DNA of 64,000 bases, taken from Eledone cirrhosa. Its lineage: Eukaryota. Of this stretch, positions 3,915 through 63,162 are shown piece by piece. Position 1 is the first letter of the stretch; each line of letters opens with the position of its first letter. Under the pieces are notes generated by a model that had not been told where the DNA came from, made no database searches, and saw only the letters and a program-made list of their open reading frames with translations. Both the position numbers and the translations under genes were made by a program. The stretch is taken from the NCBI GenBank assembly GCA_964016885.1, contig OZ024761.1, positions 1,364,001 to 1,428,000 of the forward strand. The letters are read 5' to 3'.

Positions 3915-4734
3915 TATATATATATACTTAGATTCATATGGTGGTTGAGATCTTAGAGATAATAATGATGGTTGTTGCGCTGGTGATGATAGTGATTTTG
4001 GTGGTGGTGGTGGTGGTGATGGAAGTGGTAGGGGATGAAATTAGTGGCGTTGACGATGATGATGATGATGATGATGATATTGTTGATGACAATAATGATG
4101 ATGATGATGAAAACCGTGACGATGACGATAATGGCAATGTTTACAATGAAGAGTGCAAGAGGTAAAATACAAAGTCATCACTGTTGAATGCAAGAGAATG
4201 TTAATGGCTATGTAGAAACCATGATAGTGAGTAATAACACACCACCACACACACACACACACACACACAGAGAGAGACATAGCCAGTTTGTGGCAGGGTT
4301 TATTTTAAGGAAATTTTTGAACTGCACAAATCTAAGAAGCAGGTGCCATAACCCATGTTTGATATTGTCTGAGCCTGCGAAGCATTTGTAAAGTAATATA
4401 ATGGCGCATTTTAAAACAATTTAAGTCTTTTAACCACCATTTACGATGTAAGCATCACCTATAGTATTTGATACAAAATGTAAACTTTTGTAGATTTAGA
4501 GTTGCACTTTAAATTAATTACTGGTTTGTTGTTGAGGTTGATGCAGTAGCTTGTTGTTCTAGTGCTTTTCTTGTAGAGAGACAAATATATAGATAGAGAT
4601 ATAGACAGTCAGATAGATATATAGATAGACATTATAGATAGACATATAGACAGACAGACAGACAGATAGATATATAGATAGGCATATAGGCAGTCAAACA
4701 GACAGACAGATAGATATATAGATAGACATATATG

Positions 4735-5777
4735 TTTCTTTTATTTGCCACCAGGGCATCAAAAGTGGGACAAGTACAATGGGGGGATTTTACAAAACAA
4801 GGCGTCCTCAATAAGGAGGAGGCAATAACAATATATAAAAATAAAATAAAATATAACAAAAAATAAAATCTATAACAAAGTCCTCAATAGAGAGGAGGCG
4901 CCTTGGGGGGTCGCACACACCCCCGAAAAAAGTGTGCAACCCTGCTCCTCAGGAGCACAGAGAAGGGGTGCTCCCTTGGTCTTTCATCTTCCTCACCTAT
5001 AGTCTGATGTAGAGTGAAGGCCCATACACACGGGCCATTCTCGCCACTTTCACCCATCTTTCATAGAAACGGCTGGGGTGCAGCACCTCTCTCTCCATCC
5101 TGATCCTTCTTCCGAAATGATATCGGAAGAAACGGACCAGTTGTTGGCCAGAGAGAAAGGTGTCTGACCTCAGTCCTTTCAGACGCGTCCACCATACAAC
5201 CTCTTTCGCCATGGCTATTACGCACAGAAACACCGCCTCTCCTTCGTTTTTGAAGAGGGGAGGCGGCTTGATCGTTACAATAGACTCGGTGGTCAACCGG
5301 ATCGGTCCCACCCTTGACAGCAGTTGTTCGACATAGCCCCACAGATCGGCAATGCCCGAGCAGTGTACCAATGCGTGTGCAACGGTTTCCTCGTCGCACA
5401 CGCATCTGGGACAGATCTTTTTCGATGGGTCCCTACCCGGGCGCCCGTGTCTGTAGAGCCTTTCTCGAACGGGCAGAGCCCTTCTGTAGCATTGCCAGGC
5501 CAGGGACCTCTGGAAGTTATCCATGGGTCCCGGGCTGAATGTCCTACCGAACAGGTTGGCCAGTTCGTCTTCCTCCATGCCTAGGGCTTCTCCGAGGGCG
5601 TCGTCGTACCTGCTAACCACCAGCCCTCTATAGAATGACGAGGTGGATTCTCCACTGACAGCCGGGTCCGCCTGCCAGAGAGCCGTGAGCGCCTGGGCAC
5701 ACTCGGTGTGCCAGGCGCCCAGTTTTCTCGGTCTTTGCTTGACCCAGGATTGCAGCTCGGTGAGTGAGACGAGTCTG
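4735..5777 (-). mobile_element. 5'-truncated Tx1-type L1 LINE (ORF2 C-terminus with zinc-binding domain, plus 3' UTR)
   Basis: CPRCVCDEETVAHALVHC motif; near-identical to 12824-13867; AATAAA at the 3' end; candidate TSD TAGACATATA (4723-4732 / 5778-5787). Confidence 0.9.
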
Positions 5778-6113
5778 TAGACATATAGGCAGTCAGATAG
5801 ACAGACAGAAAGATAGATGATAATCGACAACTGTCTGAGGAAGCTGCATCACTTGGGTGGGAAGGAAACTCCGAATTAACAGGCTACTGGATCAACCTTG
5901 ATAAATGACTAATTAATATCTCTACTATGGTATTGAGTACTCATTCTCGCGATAACTTTGTCTCTCTCTCTCTTCTCGATTTTGATGAAAGTCTATTTAT
6001 ATTTCCCTCCTTCCAGTGTTGCCATTTGCACATATATTTCTTCACCGTATCCTGTCCTCTCTACAGTCGTAAGATGACTTTTTATTGTCATTTAATTACA
6101 TGATCGCATTGCA

Positions 6114-8050: not shown

Positions 8051-8099
<49 letters not shown>

Positions 8100-8108
<9 letters not shown>

Positions 8109-8566
8109 GTACATACATATATGTATACAGATGTACAGTAGTATGTATATATATATACATACATGGACACATATATGTATGTACGTATGGATTCACCGAA
8201 CATTTATTATAATGCTCGATGTGTTTGTAAACAAACATCCCGTATTAAGGTAAGTATATACGTTCAACAATCTGGCAGGATGGTATACGTTGCTGACGAT
8301 AGCTAATAAGCTTGAAACTAATACAGCGTTCCTTTGTCAGTGTTGAGCAAACGAGCAACGATGGTTGCTAGACACTACGCTTAATACGGGATGTTTGTTT
8401 ACAAACACATCGAGCATTATAATAAATGTTCCAGGAATCCATACGTACATATATATATGTGTGCATGTATGTATATATATATACATACTACTGTACGTCT
8501 GTATACATATATGTATGTACGTGTACATACTTATATTTAAGTAACAGCCGTTTCATTTTTTTCGTT

Positions 8567-8570
<4 letters not shown>
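8100..8570 (+). mobile_element. Hammerhead element family B with inverted 5' arm
   Basis: 8100-8248 is the inverse of about 8380-8530; the body matches the 420-bp tandem unit at 23249-24130. Confidence 0.8.
8288..8328 (+). ncRNA. Type I hammerhead ribozyme (family B, one stem III mismatch)
   Basis: CGTTG-CTGACGA-TAGCTAATAAGCTT-GAAA-CTAA-TA-CAGCG. Confidence 0.75.
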
Positions 8571-8615
<45 letters not shown>

Positions 8616-8621
<6 letters not shown>

Positions 8622-9001
8622 ATACTTGGGGATGGTCATATTTGTGTAATAATATTGCCAGAATTAATAACTGAACACACTCACTATTTGGTTGGTTTTC
8701 GCTTCTGTGTCTTTTATATCGGTTAATTTAATTTAATTTATTCGGTCCTCAATGTTACCATTGACTGACCAACGGTAAAAAATACAGATATAATATAGAC
8801 ACAAACACATATATATATATTCTAACAAAGTTCTTTCGTTGCACATCTGCAACATCGTCACAACTGATAGAAGCGAAAACTAACCAAACAGTGAGTGTGT
8901 TCTGTTATTAATTCTGGCAATATTATTACACAAATATGACCGTCCCCAAGTATAACAAAATTTGTTTCGACACACGATTTCATATCAAAAACCTCGCAAA
9001 A

Positions 9002-9004
<3 letters not shown>
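8616..9004. mobile_element. Fold-back pseudo-LTR fragment of the Naiad-like PLE (family C)
   Basis: Matches 55700-55998; inverted arms 8616-8708 and 8868-8958. Confidence 0.8.
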
Positions 9005-9081
<77 letters not shown>

Positions 9082-10727: not shown

Positions 10728-10804
<77 letters not shown>

Positions 10805-10810
<6 letters not shown>

Positions 10811-10921
10811 TGAAATAAAATGAAAACGAAATTTCGTTTCTCACTCTTAGTACGGCACTTACTTAAATGTAAGTATGCATGTATACGTACATACATATAT
10901 GTATACAGACGTACAGTAGCA

Positions 10922-10979
<58 letters not shown>

Positions 10980-11215
10980 TACATACAGGTACACATACAT
11001 ATATGCACGTATCAGTTTAGCGAACGCTTATTATAACGCCGCTTTGTTCGTTTGTAAACAAACTGAACAGCCTGAATTTTTATGCCGTACGGTGTTAAGG
11101 CAACCACGTCACCTTTTTGTTCAACACTGACACAGGAACGATGTACTAGTTTCAAGCTTGTTAGCTATCATCAGCACCGTATACCCATCTGCCAGATAGT
11201 TGAACGTTCGAAAGT
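10805..11215 (-). mobile_element. Hammerhead element family B, diverged copy
   Basis: Reverse-complement homologue of 23435-23760. Confidence 0.8.
11139..11179 (-). ncRNA. Type I hammerhead ribozyme (family B)
   Basis: Minus strand CGGTG-CTGATGA-TAGCTAACAAGCTT-GAAA-CTAG-TA-CATCG. Confidence 0.85.
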
Positions 11216-11378
11216 ATATACATCATTCTGATGATTGAAAGCAATTTTTTTTTGCTTTCAAGAAACCACTGGTAAATGAAATAATTGCCTTATGTTGTTT
11301 ATTACATAACTATTAAGCTCTGTTACCTACATAGAGCACTCTTTTTTCCTGGACTTTTCCGACGGAATTACTTCATTC

Positions 11379-11462
<84 letters not shown>

Positions 11463-11468
<6 letters not shown>

Positions 11469-11820
11469 ATACTTGGGGAGGGTCATATTGTAATAATATT
11501 GCCAGAATTAATAACAGAACACACTCACTGTTTGGTTGGTTTTCGCTTTTGCATCTTTTATATCAGTTAATTCGTTCGGTCCTCGACGTTTACCATTGAT
11601 TGATATAGGTATAAACAGATATAATATAGGTATAAACACATGTATATAGTCAAACAAAGTTCTTACGCCATCTTTTGGTAAAGATGGCGTAAATATGCAA
11701 TACAACAGGAGGAACATAATAGCACAACTGACGATGTTGTAGATGTGCAACGAAAGAACTTTGTTAGACTATATATTATTTTGGCAATATTATTATAACA
11801 ATATAACCTTCCCCAAGTAT

Positions 11821-11826
<6 letters not shown>
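11463..11826. mobile_element. Fold-back pseudo-LTR fragment family C, with hammerhead-like motif at 11719-11772 (+)
   Basis: CTGACGA-TGTTGTAGATGTGCAAC-GAAA-GAAC-TT; homology to 55660-55950. Confidence 0.75.
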
Positions 11827-11864
<38 letters not shown>

Positions 11865-11868
<4 letters not shown>

Positions 11869-12225: not shown

Positions 12226-12800
12226 TTTCTTTATTTGCCACAAGGGCGCACAAGAAAAGGGGACAAAACAAGGACACATGCCGGGGATTTTACATACAGT
12301 CATGTAAAAATATTGAAACAAACAAATTTAACAATCGGAATCCCCAATAGGGGGGAAGCGCCACAATGGGTTGTTTAATACCCCGTAGATAGAACAACCC
12401 TCAACTTCAGGAGCGTGTTGTGCAAGTGCTCCTTTCTTCACTTTGCTCTCTCCTCTAACCTACAGGCTTATTAACAGAGAAGGCCCAATCACTTGGGCCA
12501 TTTTTGCCACTTTCACCCACCTTTCAGTAAATTTACTGGGGTGCAGTGCCTCTCTCTCCACCCTGATTCTCCTTCTAAAGTGATACTTAAAGAAGGGAAT
12601 CAATTGTTGTCCGGAGAGAAAGGCATCTGTCCTAAGTCCTCTCAACCTCGTCCACCATATAACTTCTTTCACCATAGCCACCGTACAGAGGAAAACCGCT
12701 TCTCTTTCGTTTTTGAAAGAGGCTGGCGGTTTGATCCTTACTATGGACTCGGCAGTCAATTGGATTTGTCCCATTCGCGACAGCTGTTGCTCTGCATAGT
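12226..12800 (-). mobile_element. Tx1-type LINE 3' fragment, subfamily 2
   Basis: ORF 12460-12774 is homologous to the C-terminus of 13087-13896; GATA repeats on both sides. Confidence 0.88.
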
Positions 12801-12823
12801 TAGATAGATAGATAGATAGATAA

Positions 12824-15180
12824 TTTTCTTTTTATTTGCCACCAGGGCATCAAAAAGTGGGACAAGTACAATGGGGGGAGTTTACATAACAAGGCGTCCT
12901 CAATAAGGAGGAGGCAATAACAAAATATAAAAATAAAATAAAATATAACAAAATAAAATTTATAACAAAATCCTCAATAGAGAGGAGGCACCTTGGGGGT
13001 CGCACACACCCCCGAAAAAAAGTGTGCAACCCTTCTCCTCAGAAGCACAGAGAGGGAGTGCTCCTTTGGTCTTTCATCTTCCTCACCTATAGTCTGATGT
13101 GGAGTGAAGGCCCATTCACACGGGCCATTCTCACCACTTTCACCCATCTTTCATAAAAACGGCTGGGGTGCAGCACCTCTCTCTCCATCCTGATCCTTCT
13201 TCCGAAATGATATCGGAAGAAACGGACCAGTTGTTGGCCAGAGAGAAAGGTGTCTGACCTCAGTCCTTTCAGACGCGTCCACCATACAACCTCTTTCGCC
13301 ATGGCTATTACGCACAGAAACACCGCCTCTCCTTCGTTTTTGAAGAGGGGAGGCGGCTTGATCGTTACAATAGACTCGGTGGTCAACCGGATCGGTCCCA
13401 CCCTTGACAGCAGTTGTTCGACATAGCCCCACAGATCGGCAATGCCCGAGCAGTGTACCAATGCGTGTGCAACTGTTTCCTCGTCGCACACGCATCTGGG
13501 ACAGATCTTTTTCGATGGGTCCCTACCCGGGCGCCCGTGTCTGTAGAGCCTTTCTCGAACGGGCAGAGCCCTTCTGTAGCATTGCCAGGCCAGGGACCTC
13601 TGGAAGTTATCCATGGGTCCCGGGCTGAATGTCCTACCGAACAGGTTGGCCAGTTCGTCTTCCTCCATGCCTAGGGCTTCTCCGAGGGCGTCGTCGCACC
13701 TGCTAACCACCAGCCCTCTATAGAATGACGAGGTGGATTCTCCACTGACAGCCGGGTCCGCCTGCCAGAGAGCCGTGAGCGCCTGGGCACACTCGGTGTG
13801 CCAGGCGCCCAGTTTTCTCGGTCTTTGCTTGACCCAGGATTGCAGCTCGGTGAGTGACACGAGTCTGGGAAAGGCTCGCCTCACCAACGGGCCCACACCG
13901 GTTGACCGGTGAGGAATACCTGGAGGTGCCGTAGCCTTAATGCGTGTTTACGCATCATTAGCCACGGCATCCCCAGCCCTCCTTTCGAAGGGTGTTGACA
14001 GCAGATAGATCTCCTCACCATAGGAGCACGCTTCTTCCAGAGGAATTGGAAGAGTGCGCGTTCCATTTTGGCGAGCGTTTCCCTTGGGCAAGGCACGACG
14101 GTCAGGCGGTAGTAGATGACGGACGCTATATAAGTGTTCGCCACCTCCGCCCGACCTTTCAGAGACAGTTTGCACTCGGCCCACTTCTGGGTCAGTGCAA
14201 ACACCCTGTTCGTTACCTCACCCCAGTTCTTCTCCACCTGGAGGTCTGGTCCGAACCAGACTCCGAGCAACTTAACCGGGCCTTCCGTCCAGCGCCCGAC
14301 GACGCCATCGGAGGGCATCGATCTGCCCCTCCACGTGCCGAGTTGCAGACCGATCGACTTGTCCCGGTTCAGCTTAGCCCCTGTAAACCCTTCGTACTCC
14401 TCCAGTAAGGTGCCGATCGCCCCGATTTCCGAGGCCGTCGACACCATTACTGTTACGTCGTCGGCGTAGGCCGACACCGCTTTCCGCAATCCCGGTTCCA
14501 ACGGGATGCCCTCCAACAACTCCAACTTCCGCAGCAGTGGCTTTAGAGTCATTACATACAGAAGGGAGGAAAGAGGGCACCCTTGTCGGATGGACCGCGC
14601 GATTTCGAACGGCTCCGAGAGGTAGCCGTTCACCTTGACCTTAGAGCAGATGCGGCTGCTGTGCATGGCATTGATCCAGCCCCTGAAAACGGGTCCGAAG
14701 CCTGCCGCCGCTAGCACCGCATCCAGGTAACCATGGTCGACCCTATCGAACGCCTTAGATTGATCCAAGTTGATCAGGGCCCCACCAAAGCCGGGTTCGT
14801 TCCCAACCCTCTCTATGATGTATAGCATTAGGTGGATGTTGTCGTGGATGGACCTGGACGGGATAGCACATGTCTGCGCATCTCCCACCAGGTTGCCCAC
14901 GACAAGCGCCAACCTCTTTGCTAGCACCTTGGCCAAAATCTGTAACTCTGTATTTAGCAGAGTTATGGGCCTGAAATTATTTATATCGTCCCCCTTGTTC
15001 TCGTCCTTCCTCACTAGCGTGACTACGCCCTTGGTCACAGCACAGGGAACTCTCCCGTTCTGTTGCCAGTTGCAGTAGACCGCCTCGAGGAGATCGGGGA
15101 ACAAGTCCGGCATAGCTAGATACAGTTCGTATGGAAGACCATCGAGACCCGGGGATTTGCGTTTGCCGCATTGGCTCAGC

Positions 15181-15183
<3 letters not shown>
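12824..15183 (-). mobile_element. 5'-truncated Tx1-type L1 LINE, ORF2 RT plus zinc-binding domain, frameshifted near 13890
   Basis: KSPGLDGL, NFRPITLLN, LDQSKAFDRV, RQGCPLS and YADD motifs in 13881-15182; CCHC-like domain in 13087-13896; (GATA)n at both ends. Confidence 0.95.
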
Positions 15184-15212
<29 letters not shown>

Positions 15213-15567
15213 CGAGAGAGATCTAGACGTTACACATTATAAAGGGTGTAAGAGTGAGAAATACGGTGAGGGTCATTGCAAAGATATGACGACAGGCCCT
15301 ATCTGAATTTATCGGTCCATGTGAGAAAAAAGGATGTGGTTTAGGGGTGGGGTGAGAAGAAGCAGACCAAAACAAAATAAAGCTAAATAAAATGATGACA
15401 GTATAGTTTTTTTTGTTTTTTTTACTAGTGTTTGTTTTTTATTCTGTATGCGTTGCTTCTGATAGTTTTTTCCTTTCTTTTTTTTCGTTTTTCAGGATTG
15501 GGGTGGGGGAAATGTGTTTTTTTTTTTTCGGAAATTTCTTTTGGAACTGTTTTAAATAAATAACTAC

Positions 15568-22874: not shown

Positions 22875-22906
<32 letters not shown>

Positions 22907-22907
<1 letters not shown>

Positions 22908-23247
22908 TTGTTTTGCGAGGTTTTTGATATGAAATCGTGTGTCGAAACAAATATTGTTATACTTGGGGAGGGTCAGATTGTTGTAATAATATTGCCAGAA
23001 TTAATAAGAAAGATGGCGTAGATATACAATACAACAGGAAGAACATAGTAGCACAACTGACGATGTTGCAGATGTGCAACGAAAGAACTTTCTTAGACTA
23101 GATATATGTGTTTTATAGCTATATTATATCTGTATTTTTGACCGTTGGTCAGTCAATGGTAAACATTGAGGACCGAATGAATTAACTGATATAAAAGATA
23201 CAGAAGCGAAAATCAACCAGACAGTGAGTGTGTTCTGTTATTAATTC
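22907..23247. mobile_element. Fold-back pseudo-LTR fragment family C, with hammerhead-like motif at 23049-23100 (+)
   Basis: CTGACGA-T-GTTGCA-GATG-TGCAAC-GAAA; homology to 55660-55998. Confidence 0.78.
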
Positions 23248-23463
23248 ACTGTCGCCTGTATACAAATATGTATGTACGTGTACATACTTATATTTAAGTA
23301 ACAGCCGTACTAAGAGTGGGAAATGAAATATCGTTTCATTTTTTCCGTTTATCGTTTTCGGTGCACCCGGCCGATTAACCCACTCGATATGCAAATTGGG
23401 CTACTCAGCCGTTAATATGCATAAGGTAAGTATATACGTTCAACAATCTGGCAGGAAGGTATA

Positions 23464-23504
23464 CGTTGCTGACGATAGCTAACAAGCTTGAAACTAGTAC
23501 AGCG
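23464..23504 (+). ncRNA. Type I hammerhead ribozyme (family B), predicted cleavage after 23499
   Basis: CGTTG-CTGACGA-TAGC-TAACAA-GCTT-GAAA-CTAG-TA-CAGCG. Confidence 0.88.
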
Positions 23505-23883
23505 TTCCTTTGTCAGTGTTGAACAAACGAGCAACGGTGGTTGCTAGACACTACGGCTTAATACGGGATGTTTGTTTACAAACACACCGAGCATTATAAT
23601 AAATGTTCGGTGAATCCATACGTGCATATATATATGTGTGCATGTATGTATATATATATACATACTACTGTACGTCTGTATACATATATGTATGCACGTG
23701 TACATACTTATATTTAAGTAACAGCCGTACTAAGAGTGGGAAATGAAATATCCTTTCATTTTTTCCGTTTATCGTTTTCGGTGCACCCGGCCGATTAACC
23801 CACTCAATATGCAAATTGGGCTACTCAGCCGTTAATATGCATAAGGTAAGTATATACGTTCAACAATCTGGCAGGAAGGTATA

Positions 23884-23924
23884 CGTTGCTGACGATAGCT
23901 AACAAGCTTGAAACTAGTACAGCG
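23884..23924 (+). ncRNA. Type I hammerhead ribozyme (family B), predicted cleavage after 23919
   Basis: Identical to 23464-23504. Confidence 0.88.
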
Positions 23925-24130
23925 TTCCTTTGCCAGTGTTGAACAAACGAGCAACGGTGGTTGCTGGACACTACGGCTTAATACGGGATGTTTGTTTACA
24001 AACACACCGAGCATTATAATAAATGTTCGGTGAATCCATACGTACATATATTTATGTGTGCATGTATGTATATATATATATACATACTACTGTACGTCTG
24101 TATACATATATGTATGTACGTGTACATACT

Positions 24131-24212
<82 letters not shown>

Positions 24213-31465: not shown

Positions 31466-31512
31466 AGCTTCTACAGGACTAGAACTGTTTCATTCGTGAG
31501 AAATCATCAGGA
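31466..31512 (-). ncRNA. Hammerhead ribozyme family D, 5' strand of stem I truncated
   Basis: Minus strand TC-CTGATGA-TTTCTCACGAAT-GAAA-CAG-TTCTAGTC-CTG-TA-GAAGCT. Confidence 0.7.
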
Positions 31513-31540
31513 TATATATATATATATATACGTATATATT

Positions 31541-31597
<57 letters not shown>

Positions 31598-31683
31598 GTA
31601 GGTCCCGGGTTGAGTCAGGGATAACCACAGTAAGTAAGGTACTCAATATATGGCAGAGTAAAATTTTTTTATTTTATAGAAGA

Positions 31684-31734
31684 AGCTTCTACAGGACTAG
31701 TACTGTTTCATTCAGATGAAATCTTCAGGAAGCT
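31684..31734 (-). ncRNA. Type I hammerhead ribozyme (family D), intact
   Basis: Minus strand AGCTTC-CTGAAGA-TTTCATCTGAAT-GAAA-CAG-TACTAGTC-CTG-TA-GAAGCT. Confidence 0.88.
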
Positions 31735-31811: not shown

Positions 31812-31821
31812 AATTGTATAT

Positions 31822-32260
31822 AAAAGAAAAACGAATACAGACATATACATATATGTGTTCAAATCGTAAGGGACCAGATTCGCTAAGGTGATAAGAATAC
31901 TAACTATAGACAATAGGGTTTGCCAGACTCAATTTAATAATAAATCAAGAAAATAAATACAAACCGGAATTGTGGTAACTACCACTCACCCAGACAGCTC
32001 TTGGTGCCGTTACCACAATTCCGGTTTGTATTTATTTTCTTGATTTTTTCTTAAATTTAGACAAGCAAACCCAATTGTCTATAGTTAGTATTCTTTTCAC
32101 CTTAGCGAATCTGGTCCCTTACGATTTGAACACATATATCTATATATCCGTGTTCGTTTTTCTTTTATATTATAATATACGGCTCAGAAATATCTCTTTC
32201 TTAGAGCTATTTTATTGTAAGAGACTATTTTGAGTTCCTAACTCAATATATACCTTTGAT
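31822..32260. mobile_element. Fold-back element with ~160-bp inverted arms
   Basis: 31820-31979 versus 32009-32170 inverted; TA flanks; related to 22310-22540. Confidence 0.8.
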
Positions 32261-37563: not shown

Positions 37564-37608
37564 GTTTAAGCAAAGAATCGCTGCTTTCACCCTTAACGGG
37601 ATCTTCAG
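37564..37608 (-). ncRNA. Hammerhead core (family H), stem I interrupted by an inversion
   Basis: Minus strand CTGAAGA-TCCC-GTTAA-GGGT-GAAA-GCA-(9 nt)-TGC-TT; host element 37460-37620, with a related copy at 59460-59570. Confidence 0.65.
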
Positions 37609-38350: not shown

Positions 38351-41266
38351 TACCAGATTTATCCGGCGTTGCTCGGGGTTTGAAATTATGCTAAGAATAT
38401 ACAGCTAGGAAGTAAAAGAAGAACATTATTTGTCCCCAACCTGTCAAAATAACCAGAAGTTTTCAATAATTAATGCAAACGAATATTTAGTGCAATCTTT
38501 GTACACACAAAACTATGCTGATAATGAAGGAAAACACTGAACAGGATGTAGTTATACAAATGATTAAAGACAATACACGTTGCAAATCTGTAAACAAACA
38601 GGCAGTTTTGCTAAAGTACAAAAAGTTGTAATGAAAGCAGAGTTGTATACAAACCAAAAAACAATGAGAGTAGAATAAGAGAAAATCTATTCTTTGAGAG
38701 CATCCTTTGCTGTGTATGGTTAAATTTTTAACTTATAATCCAAAATATCCTACATCACATATTCATTGGTATGTTTTGTAATGAGTAAGGTGAAGTCAAG
38801 GCAGAGCTGTAATAAGTTTTTTTGTTAACACTAAAGCACTTGAGGATAGACGATATTCTTTGCTTTTCTTTTCGGAAGAAACACAAAGAGATTATCTCGA
38901 CTGCCAACTCGTGAGCAGGCAACGTAGAATTGTCCTTGCGAAAAGCAAGGTTCATCCATGTGAATTCCAGAGACGGACGACTTGTTTATGGACATCGCAA
39001 AGGCAACACGAAGGGGAAATTGGGTTCGGCGAAAGGAGAAGGGAGTATCCACGCCTGATGTAGTCAGGCTAATTTTTGTTATTATCACATCCTCGCCTTT
39101 TCTACGTTCGGATAGAATGGCAGAGTCAATACTAAGTGGAGACAGTTTTTTAACCACAAGGCGTGTACCGTTGCATAGTTTTGTAGGAGTGATATTTCTC
39201 AGCAAAATAACTGGTGTTCCCGCTTTCAGAACCAATGTATTAGGAGGTAAACCAGGAGGATTTAAAGAATTTAGAAATTCAACTGGATAATTGATCGCAT
39301 CCTGTGGATCACATACAGTATCAATAGATTTATATATCCGTGGACATCCAGGAAGAAGCTGAAGAAGCTGATCGTTAATACAGCTAACCGTGATATTTTT
39401 GGGTGCAAGAATGGCTCTTTCGCATAGCCAATCAAGATTCGTATAGTTATCACGCAAGTTCGGGAATACACTCGCCTTCAGATCATCGACAGTTTCAACT
39501 ACATTGCAGATGTGATCAATTGCTATGTCTCCATCTGTATCCGGAGGTAGGTTACCATCTCCTATTGTAAGAATGTCTCCAGAAAATGTTGATGACAGAG
39601 GGTCCCCATGCAACCTTGCACGCATGTTGGTAGTTAGTCTTAATGATGTCACTTGTCGCCACAATGGTGAAGACTCAATACATGCATTTACCGCATCTGC
39701 TCTTGTTCCTTTCAGTATTATAGGAAGAGTCTGTCTGAAGTCTCCTTATAGCAGAAGGGTGACACCCCCCATAACATCACTGCAATCCCGTATGTCTTGC
39801 AAAAACCTGTCTAGTGCCTCAAGAGCACCTTTGTGCGCCATTGTGCACTCATCCCAAACAATAAGGTGACACCTTCGCAGCAGATGAGCCCTTTCGGAGT
39901 CTTTGGTGATATGACAAGTAGGAGTTTCCAATTTTGCCAAATTAAGGGGCAATTTAAAAACTGAATGTGCCGTCCTTCCACCAGGGAGCAAAGTTGCTGT
40001 GATTCCAGAGGACGTAACTGCTATTGCTATGTCCTTATTCTGTCTAACCTTTGCAAGAAGAAGTTTAGTAACGAAAGTTTTTCCTGTCCCCCCTGGAGCA
40101 TCGAGGAAAAATATGCCACCTCTTCTTTGAAATACCAATTCAGTAATGGTGGTATAAGCCAGTCGCTGATCAGCTAGAAGTTTTGGCTCATTATCTGTGA
40201 CGTAGAGGCCGAGATCATGGATGTCATAAGAAGTCTCCTGTATGATATCTGTGGGAAGTTTGTTTGAGTCTGTGCGATGAGTTTCTGGTAAACCGTAGTA
40301 ACGTAAAACCTTTCCTCCAATCAGAGCTAACTTGTCCTCAATATCAATGAGAGCTCTGTTGTATAATTCATTAATAAAGCCGACCTCTATTTCTGAAAGC
40401 AGCAAATGTGCTTGGTGTCTGTAGTCGTCTGGTAGTTCATCCCTATATTTCATTCACAAGAACAGAGGATCAGATAAGTTGCACGAGTGCAAAAGTACCG
40501 CAAATAAATTTCTTAGGCTGGCAGGTGAATGTGAAAGAGCAACTTCCGCCATCGTTGCATCCCACTGCGAACCATCTTCCAGCAATCCACGCCTCAAACA
40601 TGCCTTTGTGTATGTTGGAAGAATTTGTCCGTCTAACGTTCGGAGATTATCAAAGCAGGTAGGTCCTCTGACCTCATGTAGTAGCATGCGAAGATGGAAG
40701 CACTCGTGTTGGTTTGGGGGCACAGTATAAACTCTGCCCAAGCACTCGTTGAACTTGATGCCTGGATAACCTTCGACACACTGCCCTGTTTTTCTTCGCC
40801 TCCATGTATTTTTGTCCCAGGTATAGTAAGATGGGACTTGTGGATATAGTAAGGTTTTAGCAAATGGATCTTCTTGACATAGTTTAAAGAAAGCGGTAAG
40901 AGTAGTATCCTTTGGTTCTTGTGCTAACTGAGCAGCTGATGCATTCGTAAAATATACTCTCTGACCGTTCTCCAGGTGCACTTGGAGTTTTGGAACAGCA
41001 GGATGCCGTTGATGTATAGAAAATCCGAAAATCCGCCAGAACGCTTCATTAGAGCTAATGTATCTTCCAGTTTGGTACTGGGCCACTTCATCTCGGCTGT
41101 TTTCCCGAAGTAATCCAAACTTAGCAGCATCAGAGCCTTTATTAATGTACTTACAAATGTATTTTATAGATTTAATCGAATTACAGTATTCTACGTTGAT
41201 GTGTGCATCAAAAATCTTTATAAGGAGTGGATTATATGGAACAACCCATCTGTTGTCAACCTCATG
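38350..41266 (-). mobile_element. 5'-truncated Helitron with intact 3' terminus
   Basis: 3' end CCGAGCAACGCCGG hairpin then CTGGTAG|T at 38350; Rep/helicase coding remnant upstream. Confidence 0.9.
38831..41266 (-). pseudogene. Helitron Rep/PIF1-family helicase, broken by stops and frameshifts
   Basis: DNRWVVPYNP, KYICKYINKG, GRYISSNEA, LDAPGGTGKTF (Walker A), IVWDECTM, LCNGTRL, QFPLRVAFAMSINKS, FYVACSRV. Confidence 0.95.
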
Positions 41267-41409
41267 AATTTAATCTAAATCAAAATTATGGGTGTCATGC
41301 CAGAAAGACATGTACCATATCACCCGCAAAATAAGCTCTAAGATTCTAACGAGTAGGTCCGAGCATTTTATAATAACTAGAAATTGATTAACATATAAAT
41401 AATCATGAA

Positions 41410-41670: not shown

Positions 41671-41718
41671 TCTAGTTATTATATTTGTATATATATATAT
41701 ATTATATATATATATATT

Positions 41719-41804
<86 letters not shown>

Positions 41805-41984
41805 TTATATATATAATATATATATAATATATATATAATATATATATATATTTGTATATATATATATATATATATATATTTGTATAATATAAAATCAAAA
41901 GTTGGTTAAAAGAGTTCCATGTATTTTATTATGCGCATTTCAAAAACAAATATCATCATGGGATGATATTTGCGTTCTCATCAA

Positions 41985-42748
41985 TTAAATTCTCTTATTC
42001 CACCACTTCCAACATCTCTAACATTATCTCTAAACATAATAATAAAATATTAAGTAATAAATTATATCCATTCAACACTGAGCGTCATAATAATAGCAAT
42101 AGTAAACCCGACGTCAATGTTAACTCTAGGCTAGATTCTGTAAATTTAAATACGACGTCAAACGTAAGTTTGTCGAATGTTCATAACACCAATCTAAATC
42201 AGGAAACTTTAGCACCTATCGTAAATAACTTCTCCAATCCAATTCCTTCTATAAATAATACCAGGTCACTTGTTAATAACTCTGGTAATTTCTCTAATCG
42301 TAATTACAATTGCCCTGTTAGAACTAAATGTCCTCTTAGTAACCAATGTCTTGATAAAAATTTAGTGTATGAATGTAAGGTTATAACTGGTACTAATTCT
42401 TTTACCTATTTTGGTTCCACTTCCACTTCCTTTAAAGCAAGATTTTATAATCACAATTCTTCTTTTAAATACCAACTTAAAAGAACTAACACGTCACTCT
42501 CAGAACTCATATGGTCCTTAAAGGACAAAACTATTAACTACATTTCTTGGAGGAAGGTTTGCAACGCCTCTCCTTACCTGAATTCTTCCCTATCCAGAAC
42601 ATGTAATCTCTGCCTAGCGGAGAAATTTACCATTATCTCTAATTTTAATTCTATAATAAATAGACGTACGGATTTATTTTCGCTCTGCTTGCATAAATCC
42701 CATGAACTTTCCATGAAGTATACAGCTAATATCTTACTACCTAATTAG
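41985..42748 (+). pseudogene. PLE C-terminal linker plus GIY-YIG endonuclease (Nematis/Neptune-like)
   Basis: KFSYSTTSNISNIISKHNNKIL, CPVRTKCPLSNQCL, LVYECKV..YFGST..FKARFYNH, LSELIWSLK, CNLCLAEK, INRRTDL. Confidence 0.88.
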
Positions 42749-43022
42749 TTTAAAATCTTCTTTTCTCAAACGCTTTTATATCTTTTGCAAATATACCCAT
42801 CTTTCTACCTTATTTCAGTATATTATAGAATTTACTCATACTATGTCGTTAGCGGTCCCCTGTTTTTCTTCTTTTTTATCCTTTTTTCTTTTTTAATTTC
42901 TAATCTTTAATCTGGAACTTTTACTTCTCAATTACTTCTTAATTCATATTATAACTCACTATAGCATTTTCCTTATATTCTCGGCCATACAAATTTTTAT
43001 TTTTAATATATACTAATATTAC

Positions 43023-45810: not shown

Positions 45811-45860
45811 AGATTCTATAGGACTAGAACTGTTTCATTCTTTAGAAATCATCAGGAATC
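45811..45860 (-). ncRNA. Hammerhead family D, inverted twin of 45866-45916
   Basis: Minus strand GATTC-CTGATGA-TTTCTAAAGAAT-GAAA-CAG..CTA-TA-GAATCT (one stem III mismatch). Confidence 0.75.
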
Positions 45861-45865
45861 ATCAG

Positions 45866-45916
45866 AGATTCCTGATGATTTCTAAAGAATGAAACAGTTC
45901 TAGTCCTGTAGAATCT
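45866..45916 (+). ncRNA. Type I hammerhead ribozyme (family D), intact
   Basis: AGATTC-CTGATGA-TTTCTAAAGAAT-GAAA-CAG-TTCTAGTC-CTG-TA-GAATCT. Confidence 0.88.
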
Positions 45917-46389: not shown

Positions 46390-46753
46390 CGTTTCTGAAT
46401 TTGTTTAGCAAGATTCTTTATCTGAAATCGTGTGTTGAAACCGATATTGTTATACTTTGGGAGGGTCATGTTGCCAATAAGAAACACACGCACCAGTTGC
46501 TTTCACTTCAATTTATTATATATTTATAAATTTATGAATTTACAAACTTATAAATTTCTGGTTGGTTGGTTGGTTCCACAACCAGATAGTTGTTTATATA
46601 AATATATATAAACAACTATCTGGTTGTGGAACCAACCAACCAACCAGAAATTTATAAGTTTGTAAATTCATAAATTTATAAATATATAATAAATTGAAGT
46701 GAAAGCAACTGGTGCGTGTGTTTCTTATTGGCAACATGACCCTCCCAAAGTAT

Positions 46754-46760
<7 letters not shown>
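46385..46760. mobile_element. Palindromic pLTR-like element related to family C
   Basis: Near-perfect inverted arms 46444-46595 / 46609-46760; copies at 53107-53357 and 19095-19245. Confidence 0.78.
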
Positions 46761-46819
<59 letters not shown>

Positions 46820-52965: not shown

Positions 52966-53111
<146 letters not shown>

Positions 53112-53353
53112 CGTTTCTGAATTTGTTTAGCAAGATTCTTTATCTGAAATCGTGTGTTGAAACCGATATTGTTATACTTTGGGAGGGTCAGGTTGCCAAT
53201 AAGAAACACACGCACCAGTTGATTTCACTTCAATTTATTATAATAAATTTATAATAAATTTATAAATTTATTATAAATTTATTATAATAAATTGAAGGGA
53301 AAGCAACTGGTGCGTGTGTTTCTTATTGGCAACATGACCCTCCCAAAGTATAG

Positions 53354-53448
<95 letters not shown>

Positions 53449-53497
53449 TATATATATATATGCATATATATATATATATATATGCATATATATATAT

Positions 53498-53546
<49 letters not shown>

Positions 53547-53626
53547 CATACATATATATGTGTGTGTGTGTATATATATATATGCATATATACACATATA
53601 TATATATATGTGTGTGTGTGTATATG

Positions 53627-54711: not shown

Positions 54712-55452
54712 AAGAACCAAAGAGACAGAGTCAGAGTACACGAAGGAGCCATGGAGAAATATAAGACCCTCATAGAACTGGACATGAAAGGAATTTGCCC
54801 ATTATACAGGAGCAAATCATGGAATAGCTTAGATAGGGTTAGACATAAGATAGGGAAAGCCAACTCATAGTACGACAACCAGAGATACCAGAGTGTCATG
54901 TTTGTGGACGCTACCCCTGGAGGGAAATTAGCTAACCAGTGTAGAAAGGCCCTGAGAAAGACCCACTTAAAAATTAAGGTGGTAGAAAAGGCAGGAACCA
55001 CCATAAAATCCCTGATCAGCAAAACCTACCCTTTTAAGAAAACCCACTGTACCAATAGGAAATGTATCATATGTAAGGTAAACCCCCGGATAAACTGTAA
55101 AACTAGAAACGTAGTCTATAGCATAAGATGTACAGAGGGTACTTGCAGAAACATGACAACAACATACATAGGTGAGACAACTCGTAGCATAGGTGAAAGG
55201 ATAGACCAACACAGGGGGGAACTAAAAGGACGAAAAAACGGGTCAGTACTATACGAACATCCCAGACAACAACATGACGGTAACATAGACAACATAGAAA
55301 TTAGAATAATATCTAAACATAGAAATGACCCAGCAGATAGGCAAATCAGAGAGGCCAGTGAAATAGAACTTAGAAGACCAAGACTAAACAGAAAGAATGA
55401 ATGGAATAACAACAACACCCAAACAAACAACACTGACCTAAGAGAAGTATAA
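54712..55452 (+). pseudogene. PLE RT-thumb/linker plus GIY-YIG endonuclease, one in-frame TAG at about 54868
   Basis: GICPLYRSKSW, VMFVDATPGGKLA, KVVEKAG, CxxxxCxxC, NVVYSIRC..YIGETTRSIGERIDQH, RQIREASEI, LNRKNEW. Confidence 0.88.
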
Positions 55453-55471
55453 ATAAGTAAATAAAATAAAA

Positions 55472-55502
<31 letters not shown>

Positions 55503-55701
55503 ATACATACACAAGCACATAAACACACACTAGTAACCCAATCATGAACACACATCACACATCAAACAAAACACTATACACACACGCAAACGCATGCGAA
55601 AAGAAGACAAAATAAAATAAACAAACAAGCAAATAGATAAATAAATATATAGGCAGACTGAATAAAAATGGCGTAGACATACAATACAACGGGAGGAAAT
55701 A

Positions 55702-55754
55702 ATAGCACCACTGACGATGTTGCAGATGTGCAACGAAAGATTTATGATAAACTA
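55702..55754 (+). ncRNA. Type I hammerhead motif (family C)
   Basis: ATAG-CAC-CA-CTGACGA-T-GTTGCA-GATG-TGCAAC-GAAA-GATT-TA-TG-ATAA-CTAT; stem I has an internal loop. Confidence 0.7.
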
Positions 55755-56042
55755 TATATATGTGTTTGTGTCCATATTGTATCTGTATTATTTTTGACCG
55801 TCGGTCAGTCAATGGCAACATTGACGACCGAATAAATTAGGTTACCGATAAATTAGGACACAGAAGCGAAAAGCGAAAACCAACCAAACAGTGAGTGTGT
55901 TCTGTTATTAATTCTGGCAATATTACACAAATATGACCCTCCCAAGTATAACAATATATGTTTCGACACACGATTTCATATAAAAAACCTCGCAAAACTA
56001 ATTCATCGCCGTTATGCATATATATATATATATATGTATATA

Positions 56043-60194: not shown

Positions 60195-62765
60195 TCATCA
60201 TCATCATCATCATCGTTTAACGTCCATATTCCACGCTTGCATGGGTTTGGACGGGAGTTTTCTCATTTGAGGCAAGAGTGGTTGTCTTACTCGTATAGGA
60301 CTGTCTGGCGGGTTTTCTACGGCTGGATGCCCTTCCTAACACCAACCACATTTACAGTGTGGAACTGGGAGGTTTTTACCGTGTTACCAACACGGCCACA
60401 TTACAGCGTGGACTGTGTGTTTTTTTGTCGTGACACCTACACGACCTCATTTGTTTCGGGCTGGATGTTGTGACACCAACATAACTTTACATTGAAAGGG
60501 GTGGTGAGGATGGGGTGGGGGTAGTGGGACGGGGGTGTATTTTGTTAGAGGTGCCTACTGACTGTAGTAGGTTTCACTTTATACTTAGGTAAGGCGGGTC
60601 TTCTCTATTACTGTGTAGCGCCAAAGCTCTCGGTCCAGTGACATTGTCTTGGAGAGGTGTAAGTGTGTGAGGTCGGAATTTATCAAGTCGTCCCAGATTT
60701 TTCTGGGTCTGCCTACTCCGTGGCTACGTCTATTTTTATTGCCCTGCACTTTTTTATACAGCTGTCGTCTTTCATGCGCATCACGTGACCATACCAACCA
60801 GGTCTTCTCTCGAGTAAACAACATCTGATCCCTCTTATTTCTAATTTCTCCCTTAGTTCGTTTATGCTTTGCCGTTCACGTATATTACTATTACACATCC
60901 AGCAGAGCATGCAAGCTTCGTTTCTCTCCAGTCTGCGTATATCCTCTGCACACAATGCCCAGGTCTCACTTCCATGTAACATTGCTGTTCGTATGTAGGC
61001 ATCATACAGCCTGGCTTTCATTTTTAGAGAGAACCCTTTAGTGGCCAATAGTGGTATAAGCTCTCTGAACTTTTTCCATCCCGTTCTGACTCTAGCTACA
61101 GTACTTTCAGAGCACCCTCCGCCCACTGCTGATTTTATCACCCAGGTAACGGAAGCTGTCCACAATTTCTATAGAACCATCTGTGCAATGGAATGAGTTA
61201 GTATTCTGTGGGCACTTGCTGCTACTTATTGCACCAGAGCACCGGCCACATATAAAATCTATATTCTTAGTTAGCTTACCTGTGATCCCACTACATCTTT
61301 TATGCACCCATACTTTGCATTTGGGACATAAAATGGAGTTTTTACCTACTCCTTTCCTACACACTGAGCATGGCCATTTCCCAGATGGGACCGGTGTCCT
61401 ATTTTCCTTCCTACAAACTAGAACTTTAGTCTTAGACAAGTTAACTTTAAGGCCTTTTGAATCTAGGCCATGCTTCCATGTTTGGAATTTCTTCTCTAGT
61501 TCAGCCATTGATTCAGCTATGAGCGTTAGATCATCTGCATATAGGAATTCCCATGGGCAGCCGGTCTTGAACTCCTGAAGGGCAATAATAAATAGTAGGA
61601 CGGAGCCCTGATGAACACCAACTTTTACGCTAAACTCTTCACTATATTCGTTGTTAATTCTAACCTTGCTGACTGTTTCTTTATACATGGCTTGTATAGC
61701 TCTCACAAGCCATTCATCAACACCTAGTTTTCTAAGGGCCCACCAGATAATCGAGCGGGGTACTCTGTCAAAGGCTTTCTCCAAGTCAACAAAAGCTAAG
61801 TATAGGGGTTTACTTTTAGCTAGGTACTTCTCCTGTAGTTGTCGTGCAAGGAAAAGAGCGTCTGTTGTACTTTTACCTGACACAAACCCGAACTGCATTT
61901 CGTCTAGATCAATTCGCTCTCTGATTAGTTGCGCTATTACTTTTTCTGTGACCTTCATGACCTGGTCAATTAATTTAATGCCTCTATCTAGGGCATCACC
62001 TTTACCCTTGTAGCAGTTAATGATGATGCTGCTGCGCCATTCCTTCGGAACGACCCCATTCTGTATGACTTGGTTTACTATCCGGGTGACCATAGTGTGT
62101 CCCACCGTTCCAGATGCTTTCAGCATTTCGGCAACTATATGCGAAGGCCCGGCCGCCTTGCCCGTCTTCATGTCTTTGATCGCCTTACTTATTATACTAC
62201 CTTCAACTTGCACTGCTGGTCCCTATATTGGGTCAATGTGGGGGAGACTGTCTTTCTCCCATTTATTCTCCTCATTTAGTAGCCTTTCGTAGTGATACTT
62301 CCAAGCTACCTTCTTATCAGCGTCAGTGATGGCAAGTACACCATCATCATTTAGGACACACTTCTCCCCGACAATATCACTGTTTTCCTTGACACATTGC
62401 CTAGCAATCCTGAACACCTCACGTTTTTGGTCCTCGCGTTGGAGAACATGCTTGAACTTTCTTTCTTCTGCTTCCCTTCTTGCGAAGTACACTTGTCTCC
62501 TAGCTTCCCTCCTGGCCACTTGATAGTCTTCTCTACTTCCCCCATCTCGCCATGCTTTCCAAGCCTGCTTTTTGGCCTTGATTGACCTCTCCACCTTACT
62601 GTTCCACCACCAAGTTACTCTCCTCCTGCCTATAGGCCTGCTCCAGCCACAGGTTTCATCTGTCGCCTTCAGCAGGTTAGCTTTCAGGAATTCCCACTGT
62701 TCCTCTATAGTGTACGACTCTAATTGCTCTTCCTTACTGTCAAAAGCATCAAGTAATATGCTTTT
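60195..62765 (-). mobile_element. 5'-truncated, frameshifted RTE-clade LINE (RT with embedded PHD-type finger)
   Basis: MKTGKAAGP, QFGF, FVDLEKAFDRV, GVHQGS, LYADD, CSVCRKGV..CPKCKVWVHKRC..CGRC, GRPRKIW; (GAT)n tail at 60195-60214. Confidence 0.93.
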
Positions 62766-62809
62766 AAATATATATATGTATATATATATATATACATATA
62801 TATATCTGT

Positions 62810-63070
62810 GTGTGTGTATATATATATATATGAGTGTATATACATATATATATATATGAGTGTATATACATATATATATATATATATATATGAGTGTATA
62901 TACATGTATATGAGTGTATATACATATATATATGAGTGTATATACATATATATATATATGAGAGTATATACATATATATATATATGAGTGTATATACATA
63001 TATATATATGAGTGTATATACATATATATATATGAGTGTATATACATATATATATGAGTGTATATACATA
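62810..63070. repeat. TATGAGTGTATATACATATA minisatellite derived from a TA tract
   Basis: Seen directly, about 10 units. Confidence 0.85.
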
Positions 63071-63162
63071 TATATATACATATATATATACATATATATA
63101 TACATATATATATACATATATATATACATATATATATACATTACATAGATATATATATATAC

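What the first reader, a model, noticed from the sequence alone, without database searches (positions are those of the whole stretch)
23249..24130. 420-bp tandem with one intact hammerhead per unit: candidate cephalopod retrozyme / circular RNA
Seen: two near-identical units offset by exactly 420 bp, each with CGTTG-CTGACGA-TAGCTAACAAGCTT-GAAA-CTAG-TA-CAGCG and no credible ORF. Dispersed copies lie at 8100-8570 and 10805-11215; in the latter stem I reads CGGTG/CATCG (a U-G pair swapped to G-U) and only the free N of the core changes. Established: tandem hammerhead repeats (newt satellite 2, schistosome Sm-alpha, non-LTR retrozymes) self-process into monomers that circularise. Inference: read-through would release a 420-nt RNA (23500-23919), with the two palindromic CTAG stems allowing dimeric folding, probably mobilised in trans by a PLE reverse transcriptase.
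Basis: partly seen in the sequence, partly recalled or inferred. Interest (0 to 1): 0.87.

Follow-up and report, generated by a model that had tools for sequence, protein, structure and literature searches.

The report
Penelope-spread hammerhead retrozyme, 24,000 copies
This is one truncated copy of a 420-base non-coding repeat with a predicted self-cutting RNA motif that occurs about 24,000 times in this animal genome; its insertions carry the end marks of Penelope-type jumping genes, whose enzyme likely copies it from an RNA circle, a step proposed in print but untested.

Summary
Window 23248-24138 is 2.1 copies of a 420-bp unit with two type I hammerhead motifs exactly 420 bp apart; predicted monomer 23500-23919. 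It is one 5'-truncated copy of a family whose 31-nt ribozyme core occurs 24,001 times genome-wide, with 2,534 adjacent pairs and arrays of 44 and 29 units. The insertions bear Penelope-like element (PLE) marks: (TA)n targets, scattered 5' ends, and 3' ends at two fixed sites 56 nt apart, half a unit from the cleavage site. In 34 of 37 two-armed insertions, one arm ends at each site. One young insertion carries a variant in all 9 pieces of both arms, and no other array has it, as expected from repeated copying of one RNA circle. Other arrays, this one included, are mosaic, so uncut multimer templates remain possible. No ORF-bearing parent was found; cleavage, expression and circles are untested. 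Verdict: a new member of the metazoan non-LTR retrozymes, with unusually direct genomic evidence for PLE mobilisation. The scan found this family before on other DNA of this genome (e1-8665316).

The parts
23248..24138 (+). Single-armed retrozyme array: unit positions 168-420, 1-420, 1-217 (unit position 1 = 23500). 5' end truncated; 3' end at the family's short end site.
23438..23524 (+). Hammerhead 1 (type I). Extended stem I 23438-23468 / 23500-23524, core CUGACGA 23469-23475, U.U at the base of stem II (AGCU-AACA-AGCU), GAAA, palindrome ACUAGU 23493-23498; predicted cut after 23499.
23858..23944 (+). Hammerhead 2, same core; predicted cut after 23919
23500..23919 (+). Predicted 420-nt monomer or circle, 38% GC, about 70% paired (circular MFE -141.8 kcal/mol)
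23618..23702 (+). Long AT-rich hairpin just upstream of the short end site; its TA-run length accounts for much of the size range among units
23717..23772 (+). 56-nt PLE-type tail (unit 218-273) between the family's two fixed 3' end sites; the same segment lies at 23297-23352
   Evidence: contigs leave the unit at 23352 into TA repeats
24139..24210 (.). (TA)n target microsatellite at the 3' end
22906..23247 (.). Two-armed pLTR fragment of an autonomous PLE (family B, with its own hammerhead at 23057). Its + arm is cut about 45 nt short of its usual end and joined in sense to the array's 5' end.
8090..8560 (.). Dispersed two-armed copy: - arm 8090-8249 (short end), + arm from 8246 (tail partly deleted); hammerhead at 8293 with a broken palindrome
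10804..11221 (-). Dispersed single-armed copy of the longer subfamily, with tail; hammerhead core at 11174

Best explanation
It is a copy of a non-coding, hammerhead-bearing repeat (a non-LTR retrozyme) whose insertions show Penelope-type ends, and it is likely spread by a Penelope-like element's enzyme reverse-transcribing an RNA circle round and round. Steps: (1) read-through transcription of arrays of two or more units gives multimers (inferred). (2) Two hammerheads pair through ACUAGU and cut after GUA, releasing 420-nt monomers that a host ligase would close (predicted; shown for axolotl and mussel retrozymes in PMC7229834). (3) A PLE protein supplied in trans would nick (TA)n and start cDNA at unit position 217 or 273 (end sites shown; enzyme inferred; two-site internal initiation shown in vitro for an anole PLE, PMC11167929). 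(4) Often both ends of the break are extended, one from each site, which gives back-to-back arms with a tail on one side (structure shown; two-enzyme reading inferred). (5) Synthesis passes the cleavage site repeatedly and stops at scattered points (shown). This window's array is a single-armed product, about 2.1 rounds long.
For: 24,001 exact core copies, reversed-pattern control 0. 2,534 adjacent pairs at 415-440 nt. Of 162 arms in 92 loci, 140 end at one of two sites; 114 of those 140 run into TA repeats, against 3 of 22 other ends. Of 50 two-armed insertions, 37 have both outer ends at these sites: 34 have one short and one long end, 3 two long, 0 two short (p=1e-7 against 50:50). This matches the published PLE layout of an inverted 5'-truncated copy with a tail on one end (Craig et al. 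2021, passages). In L120, A97G and A342T are in 9 of 9 covering pieces in both arms. The 41-mer with A342T occurs 13 times genome-wide, 8 of them in L120; the other 5 are lone units without the haplotype. Variants are also shared across both arms in L175 and L198. Stem I is kept by compensating changes: pair 33/69 is U-G in 21, G-U in 11 and A-U in 4 of 39 rows, and 95% of cells pair. The monomer folds at z=-7.6, and at -6.1 without the AT hairpin.
Against: No cleavage, expression or circle was observed. The hammerhead combines two weakening features, a one-pair stem III and a U.U pair. Each alone gave 6% and 22% monomer cleavage in axolotl, and only 1 of 9 Xenopus dimers cleaved in vitro. In the anole PLE, hammerhead cleavage was not needed and uncut RNA was the main substrate. 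Several arrays are not uniform. In L031, G282C is in 6 of the 8 right-arm pieces that cover it and absent from the left arm. L202 and L170 are mixed, and this window's last partial unit carries two alleles of another sub-lineage. L033 and L191 show ABAB patterns best explained by local DNA duplication. 5' ends do not pile up at the cleavage site (1 of 127 within 5 nt, 3 expected). The partner PLE is unidentified. Invariance of the core and stem II in the alignment is partly built in, because loci were picked by that pattern. Loci come mostly from the first 125 Mb of one contig.
Confidence: 0.62

Rival explanations
1. Non-autonomous PLE derivative copied from uncut linear multimer transcripts. 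The hammerhead is a weak or protein-assisted pLTR relic, and circles, if any, are by-products.
For: The anole PLE initiates internally and uses uncut RNA. The ribozyme architecture is weak. Mosaic arrays (L031, L170, L202, this window) fit mixed multimer templates. Long arrays that could be sources exist.
Against: Truncation plus internal initiation can only shorten arrays, yet young insertions hold 9-10 near-identical units (L120, L166). The L120 haplotype has no multimer source in the assembly. The long arrays examined belong to an older 427-430 nt subfamily.
Confidence: 0.25
2. The unit is just the pLTR of an autonomous PLE, and these copies are its 5'-truncated ends.
For: The end structure is that of PLEs. 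Xenopus retrozymes resemble pLTRs. The search for a parent was a sample, not exhaustive.
Against: Units follow each other directly, with no ORF between, in 2,534 adjacent pairs. In none of 92 loci does an arm continue in sense into a PLE ORF. None of 90 endonuclease loci from three searches has this unit as its pLTR. A rare ancestral parent is compatible with the best explanation.
Confidence: 0.08
3. Satellite DNA expanded at the DNA level (unequal crossing-over or slippage) from a dead hammerhead-bearing fragment.
For: Arrays of 44 and 29 units with decayed cores (35 and 13 strict), and ABAB duplications.
Against: It cannot explain dispersal to thousands of sites, two fixed 3' ends in TA repeats, the one-short-one-long rule, or variants shared across an inversion. 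It does explain secondary growth of some arrays.
Confidence: 0.05

Closest known systems
Metazoan non-LTR retrozymes (coral, mussel, axolotl; Cervera and de la Pena 2020, PMC7229834, parts 2-4 of 6 read; Li, Clavereau and Pollet 2026, 10.64898/2026.07.22.740005, parts 1-3 of 5 read)
   Same: Non-coding tandem unit of a few hundred bases, GC under 50%, one type I hammerhead per unit, highly self-paired predicted circle, coexistence with PLEs
   Different: The parts read name no cephalopod family and do not describe two fixed internal 3' end sites, two-armed insertions or insertion-specific variants. Expression and circles are shown there and not here. No homologous PLE was found here, whereas 24 of 57 Xenopus families matched a known element.
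Axolotl HHR_Amex1 and HHR_Amex2 / newt satellite 2 hammerheads (PMC7229834)
   Same: One-pair stem III with a palindromic tetraloop (as Amex1); U.U at the base of stem II (as Amex2); dimer cleavage expected
   Different: Both weakening features occur in one ribozyme; the cleavage triplet is GUA; stem I extends to about 24 pairs
Endonuclease-bearing Penelope-like elements (Craig et al. 2021, passages read; anole Poseidon, Frangieh et al. 2024, PMC11167929, parts 1-2 of 4 read)
   Same: 5' truncation, inverted 5' copy, tail on one end, two end sites bounding the tail, AT-rich targets, type I hammerhead
   Different: No RT or GIY-YIG ORF; tail is 56 nt rather than 30-40; multimers of the short unit itself

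Membership tests
Metazoan non-LTR retrozyme | Type I hammerhead in each of at least two consecutive tandem units, motif fold below -5 kcal/mol | tested here: met
   2 of 2 cores intact; -8.2 and -13.4 kcal/mol; stem I covariation
Metazoan non-LTR retrozyme | Short non-coding unit, GC under 50% | tested here: met
   420 nt, 38% GC, stops in all six circular frames
Metazoan non-LTR retrozyme | Highly self-paired predicted circle with the hammerhead stems formed | tested here: met
   70% paired; stem II pair probabilities 0.90-1.0, stem I 0.45-0.94
Metazoan non-LTR retrozyme | Self-cleavage in vitro | not testable with these tools
   Needs a transcription assay
Metazoan non-LTR retrozyme | Accumulation as linear and circular monomer RNA | not testable with these tools
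   Needs RNA data or a Northern blot
Metazoan non-LTR retrozyme | No LTR, primer binding site or polypurine tract; target-site duplication when present | not tested
   No PBS or PPT search was run; duplications cannot be read in TA repeats
Rfam hammerhead families | Covariance-model match | tested here: not met
   No hammerhead family at gathering score or among 65 matches at E<=10
Autonomous Penelope-like element | RT plus GIY-YIG ORF within or joined to the repeat | tested here: not met
   None in the unit, in 92 loci or at 90 endonuclease loci; not exhaustive genome-wide
PLE-mobilised insertion | Variable 5' truncation, inverted 5' copy, tail at one end only | tested here: met
   34 of 37 two-armed insertions with both ends at the fixed sites
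PLE-mobilised insertion | AT-rich or microsatellite target | tested here: met
   114 of 140 fixed-site ends run into TA repeats
PLE-mobilised insertion | Sequence homology to the pLTR of an identified autonomous partner | tested here: inconclusive
   No homology to families B, C or the Pfam GIY-YIG hits; most PLE families in this genome were not sampled

The most novel reading that the evidence does not exclude
A Penelope RT-endonuclease dimer loads on one ribozyme-made 420-nt RNA circle, starts at two fixed sites from the two ends of a break in (TA)n, and rolls round it several times in both arms. The genome would then record rolling-circle reverse transcription of a viroid-sized circular RNA and explain the PLE inverted-arm-plus-tail structure in general. 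In this window the enzyme may also have jumped from the retrozyme to the RNA of PLE family B, which would name the partner.
Probability: 0.45. Interest if true: 0.75.

Novelty: new member of a known kind. Interest (0 to 1): 0.5.

Why it matters
The papers read propose that animal retrozymes are copied from circles by PLE enzymes, but they show only co-occurrence and pLTR likeness, and they state that the mechanism is open. This family gives a defined substrate: two exact start sites, a (TA)n target, a 420-nt template, thousands of young copies, and an insertion whose private variant is fixed in every unit. That makes circle versus uncut multimer directly testable in vitro and by genome census. 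It also points to a large hammerhead-bearing repeat family in a likely octopod genome; a 2026 Octopus vulgaris repeat annotation does not mention ribozymes in its main text.

Tried and rejected
Own-genome DNA search with the unit found nothing because common words are skipped; uninformative. No RNA holder listed among sequencing runs. The laid runs were contigs of unrecorded kind and say nothing on expression. A 68-codon frame through the hammerhead in two loci (L039, L042), considered as a leftover PLE N-terminus: no longer homolog, and one marginal repetitive hit at E=9e-4; rejected. A 30-codon ATG frame (23323, 23743) is broken in other subfamilies; rejected as functional. Octamer ATGCAAAT at 23389 and 23809 as an snRNA-type promoter element (link to newt satellite 2 recalled, not checked): mutated (A315T) in several young, multi-unit insertions, so not required. 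RNA-editing scars: A>G versus T>C on the sense strand was 21 versus 10 in 33 young loci (p=0.07) and 18 versus 11 in an overlapping set; suggestive, not significant. A pile-up of 5' ends at the cleavage site was not found. Partner hunt: families B and C and the top Pfam GIY-YIG hits share no sequence with the unit. In L040 the unit lies antisense inside a family C copy, read as a passenger. A genome-wide test of endonuclease motif plus this hammerhead was not obtained, so a rare parent stays open. The Rfam mir-283 hit at 31937 and miRNA-like hits on the AT hairpin are generic hairpins. The sequence look-up in earlier findings was empty.

Full report
Observation. Tandem Repeats Finder gives period 420, 2.1 copies and 97% matches at 23248-24135. 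Hammerhead cores lie at 23469 and 23889. Counting from the predicted cut (position 1 = 23500), the array is units 168-420, 1-420 and 1-217, followed by a TA run. It therefore holds two ribozymes and one full monomer, 23500-23919. All six circular frames are closed. The copies at 8090-8560 and 10804-11221 are real; the first is two-armed with a damaged stem III, and the second belongs to a longer subfamily.

The ribozyme. It is type I: six proximal stem I pairs, a bulge, then a long distal stem that would close the monomer. Stem II has four pairs on a U.U mismatch. Stem III is one pair with the loop CUAG, and the cut follows GUA. In 39 distinct copies, 95% of cells pair, against 32-45% when partners are slid. 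One stem I pair switches among U-G, G-U and A-U. These copies are related, and they were picked by the core pattern, so the invariance of the core is not independent evidence. The monomeric stem III costs 5.4 kcal/mol, while ACUAGU pairs with itself at -6.8. This fits the dimer mode described for metazoan hammerheads (PMC4209133, passages). Axolotl ribozymes with either weakness cut poorly alone and better as dimers (PMC7229834). Rfam does not recognise the motif, and the motif alone folds no better than shuffles. Activity is predicted, not shown.

The family. The window lies in a 3.0-Gb genome. The 31-nt core occurs 24,001 times, with a reversed control of 0. There are 2,534 adjacent pairs at 415-440 nt. 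Units fall into subfamilies of about 420-426, 427-433 and 466-516 nt. A young sub-lineage marker occurs 1,852 times; this window's copy lacks it. Two long arrays hold 44 and 29 units with partly decayed cores.

Insertion anatomy. I mapped 162 arms in 92 loci, after dropping arms at locus edges, the two long arrays and the duplicated copies in L038. The loci were chosen by pattern, mostly from the first 125 Mb of contig C1. Seventy-eight arms end near unit 273, 62 near 217 and 22 elsewhere. I set the class windows by hand, including three extra positions for the long subfamily. Of the 140 fixed-site ends, 114 run into TA repeats, against 3 of the 22 others. Fifty insertions have two arms back to back. 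In the 37 with both ends at a fixed site, 34 have one of each, 3 have two long ends and none has two short ends (p=1e-7). The 5' ends are spread over the unit, with 1 of 127 near the cleavage site where 3 are expected. This is the layout described for PLEs: 5' truncation, an inverted 5' copy and a tail on one end (Craig et al. 2021). For an anole PLE the tail was shown to be the stretch between two internal RT start sites, with both DNA strands cut and extended and a dimer predicted (PMC11167929). PLE mobilisation is therefore strongly supported (about 0.9).

Circle or multimer. The start sites lie half a unit from the cut, and arms run through it, so the template was a circle or an uncut multimer. 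In favour of a circle: in L120 all 9 covering pieces in both arms carry A97G and A342T. The A342T 41-mer occurs 13 times in the genome, 8 of them there; the 5 others are lone units without the haplotype. No multimer source is seen, although it could be missing from the assembly. L175 and L198 also share variants across arms. Against: L031, L170, L202 and this window's array are mosaic; L033 and L191 show local duplication; the anole enzyme did not need cleavage; and 8 of 9 Xenopus dimers did not cleave. A fold-back origin of the second arm is not excluded, though it explains the one-short-one-long rule less simply. I put the circle at about 0.6.

Partner. The genome has large autonomous PLE families. 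Family B has a 1213-aa frame with its own hammerhead, and family C is another. Neither shares sequence with the unit, nor do the top 30 Pfam GIY-YIG loci. No arm in 92 loci continues into a PLE ORF. In this window the array's 5' end joins in sense to a family B pLTR cut about 45 nt short, and the composite has one tailed and one short end. That could be a template switch or an independent insertion with deletion. It is 1 of 65 single arms, and many others also abut unique sequence, so it is a lead only.

Comparison with what is known. It meets the sequence criteria for a non-LTR retrozyme (PMC7229834; bioRxiv 10.64898/2026.07.22.740005); cleavage and circles are untested. Those papers propose PLE mobilisation from co-occurrence and pLTR likeness. 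Five literature searches listed no paper on a cephalopod retrozyme or on these end marks in retrozymes; the library lacks most subscription papers, and supplements were not read. The giant squid genome paper lists 235 Hammerhead_1 hits without analysis in the passage seen. A family B homolog in Octopus vulgaris at 68% identity makes an octopod host likely.

Verdict. A real, new member of a known class. The locus itself is an ordinary truncated copy. The family supplies good genomic evidence for a proposed but unproven mechanism. This scan reported the same family and similar ones on other DNA of this genome. I had noted the inverted arm and tail before that look-up, took the two-enzyme reading from it, and tested the counts myself. 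Interest 0.5.

Noticed in passing
window 54871-55998 (+): 3' end of an autonomous PLE (family B): GIY-YIG-type frame, hammerhead at 55711, tail of about 39 nt. In full-length L111 the ATG lies about 25 nt inside the pLTR end, so the tail is N-terminal coding sequence; the 1213-aa frame had no Pfam hit.
   Followed up: partly
window 41710-43020: Second PLE family (C): endonuclease frame 41888-42748 (+), preceded by an inverted pLTR fragment; related hammerhead-like motifs at 2937 and 45211
   Followed up: partly
window 31488-31728, 37585-37608, 45833-45894, 46201, 47033, 57525: At least four further hammerhead-like families, several also with U.U at the base of stem II, often in inverted pairs
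   Followed up: no
window 8612-9018, 11421-11867, 22906-23247: Short ORF-less two-armed family B pLTR insertions in TA runs, each close to a copy of the retrozyme; probably a shared target
   Followed up: partly
L040:4966-7704: Retrozyme array inserted antisense inside a family C ORF without TA flanks, with the same junction repeated in the inverted arm; the autonomous element may have carried it as a passenger
   Followed up: partly
L115-L117 and L118-L119 (G000:C1 51.77-51.79 Mb and 53.35-53.37 Mb): Satellite-like arrays of 44 and 29 retrozyme units with higher-order repeats and decaying cores
   Followed up: partly
window 38831-41269 (-): Broken frames resembling a Helitron Rep and PIF1 helicase (motifs recalled, not scanned)
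   Followed up: no
window 13087-15236 (-), 4997-5848 (-), 60713-63140: LINE-type reverse transcriptase fragments, with a 97% identical 1.07-kb duplicate between 4708-5777 and 12798-13867
   Followed up: no
window 31818-32170, 52968-53549, 46444-46761: Long near-perfect palindromes, probably two-armed PLE ends; the first gives the Rfam mir-283 hit at threshold
   Followed up: no
mapped arms: Six of 127 5' ends fall at unit 393-395, inside the catalytic core; possibly an RT pause, not significant after allowing for many windows
   Followed up: no
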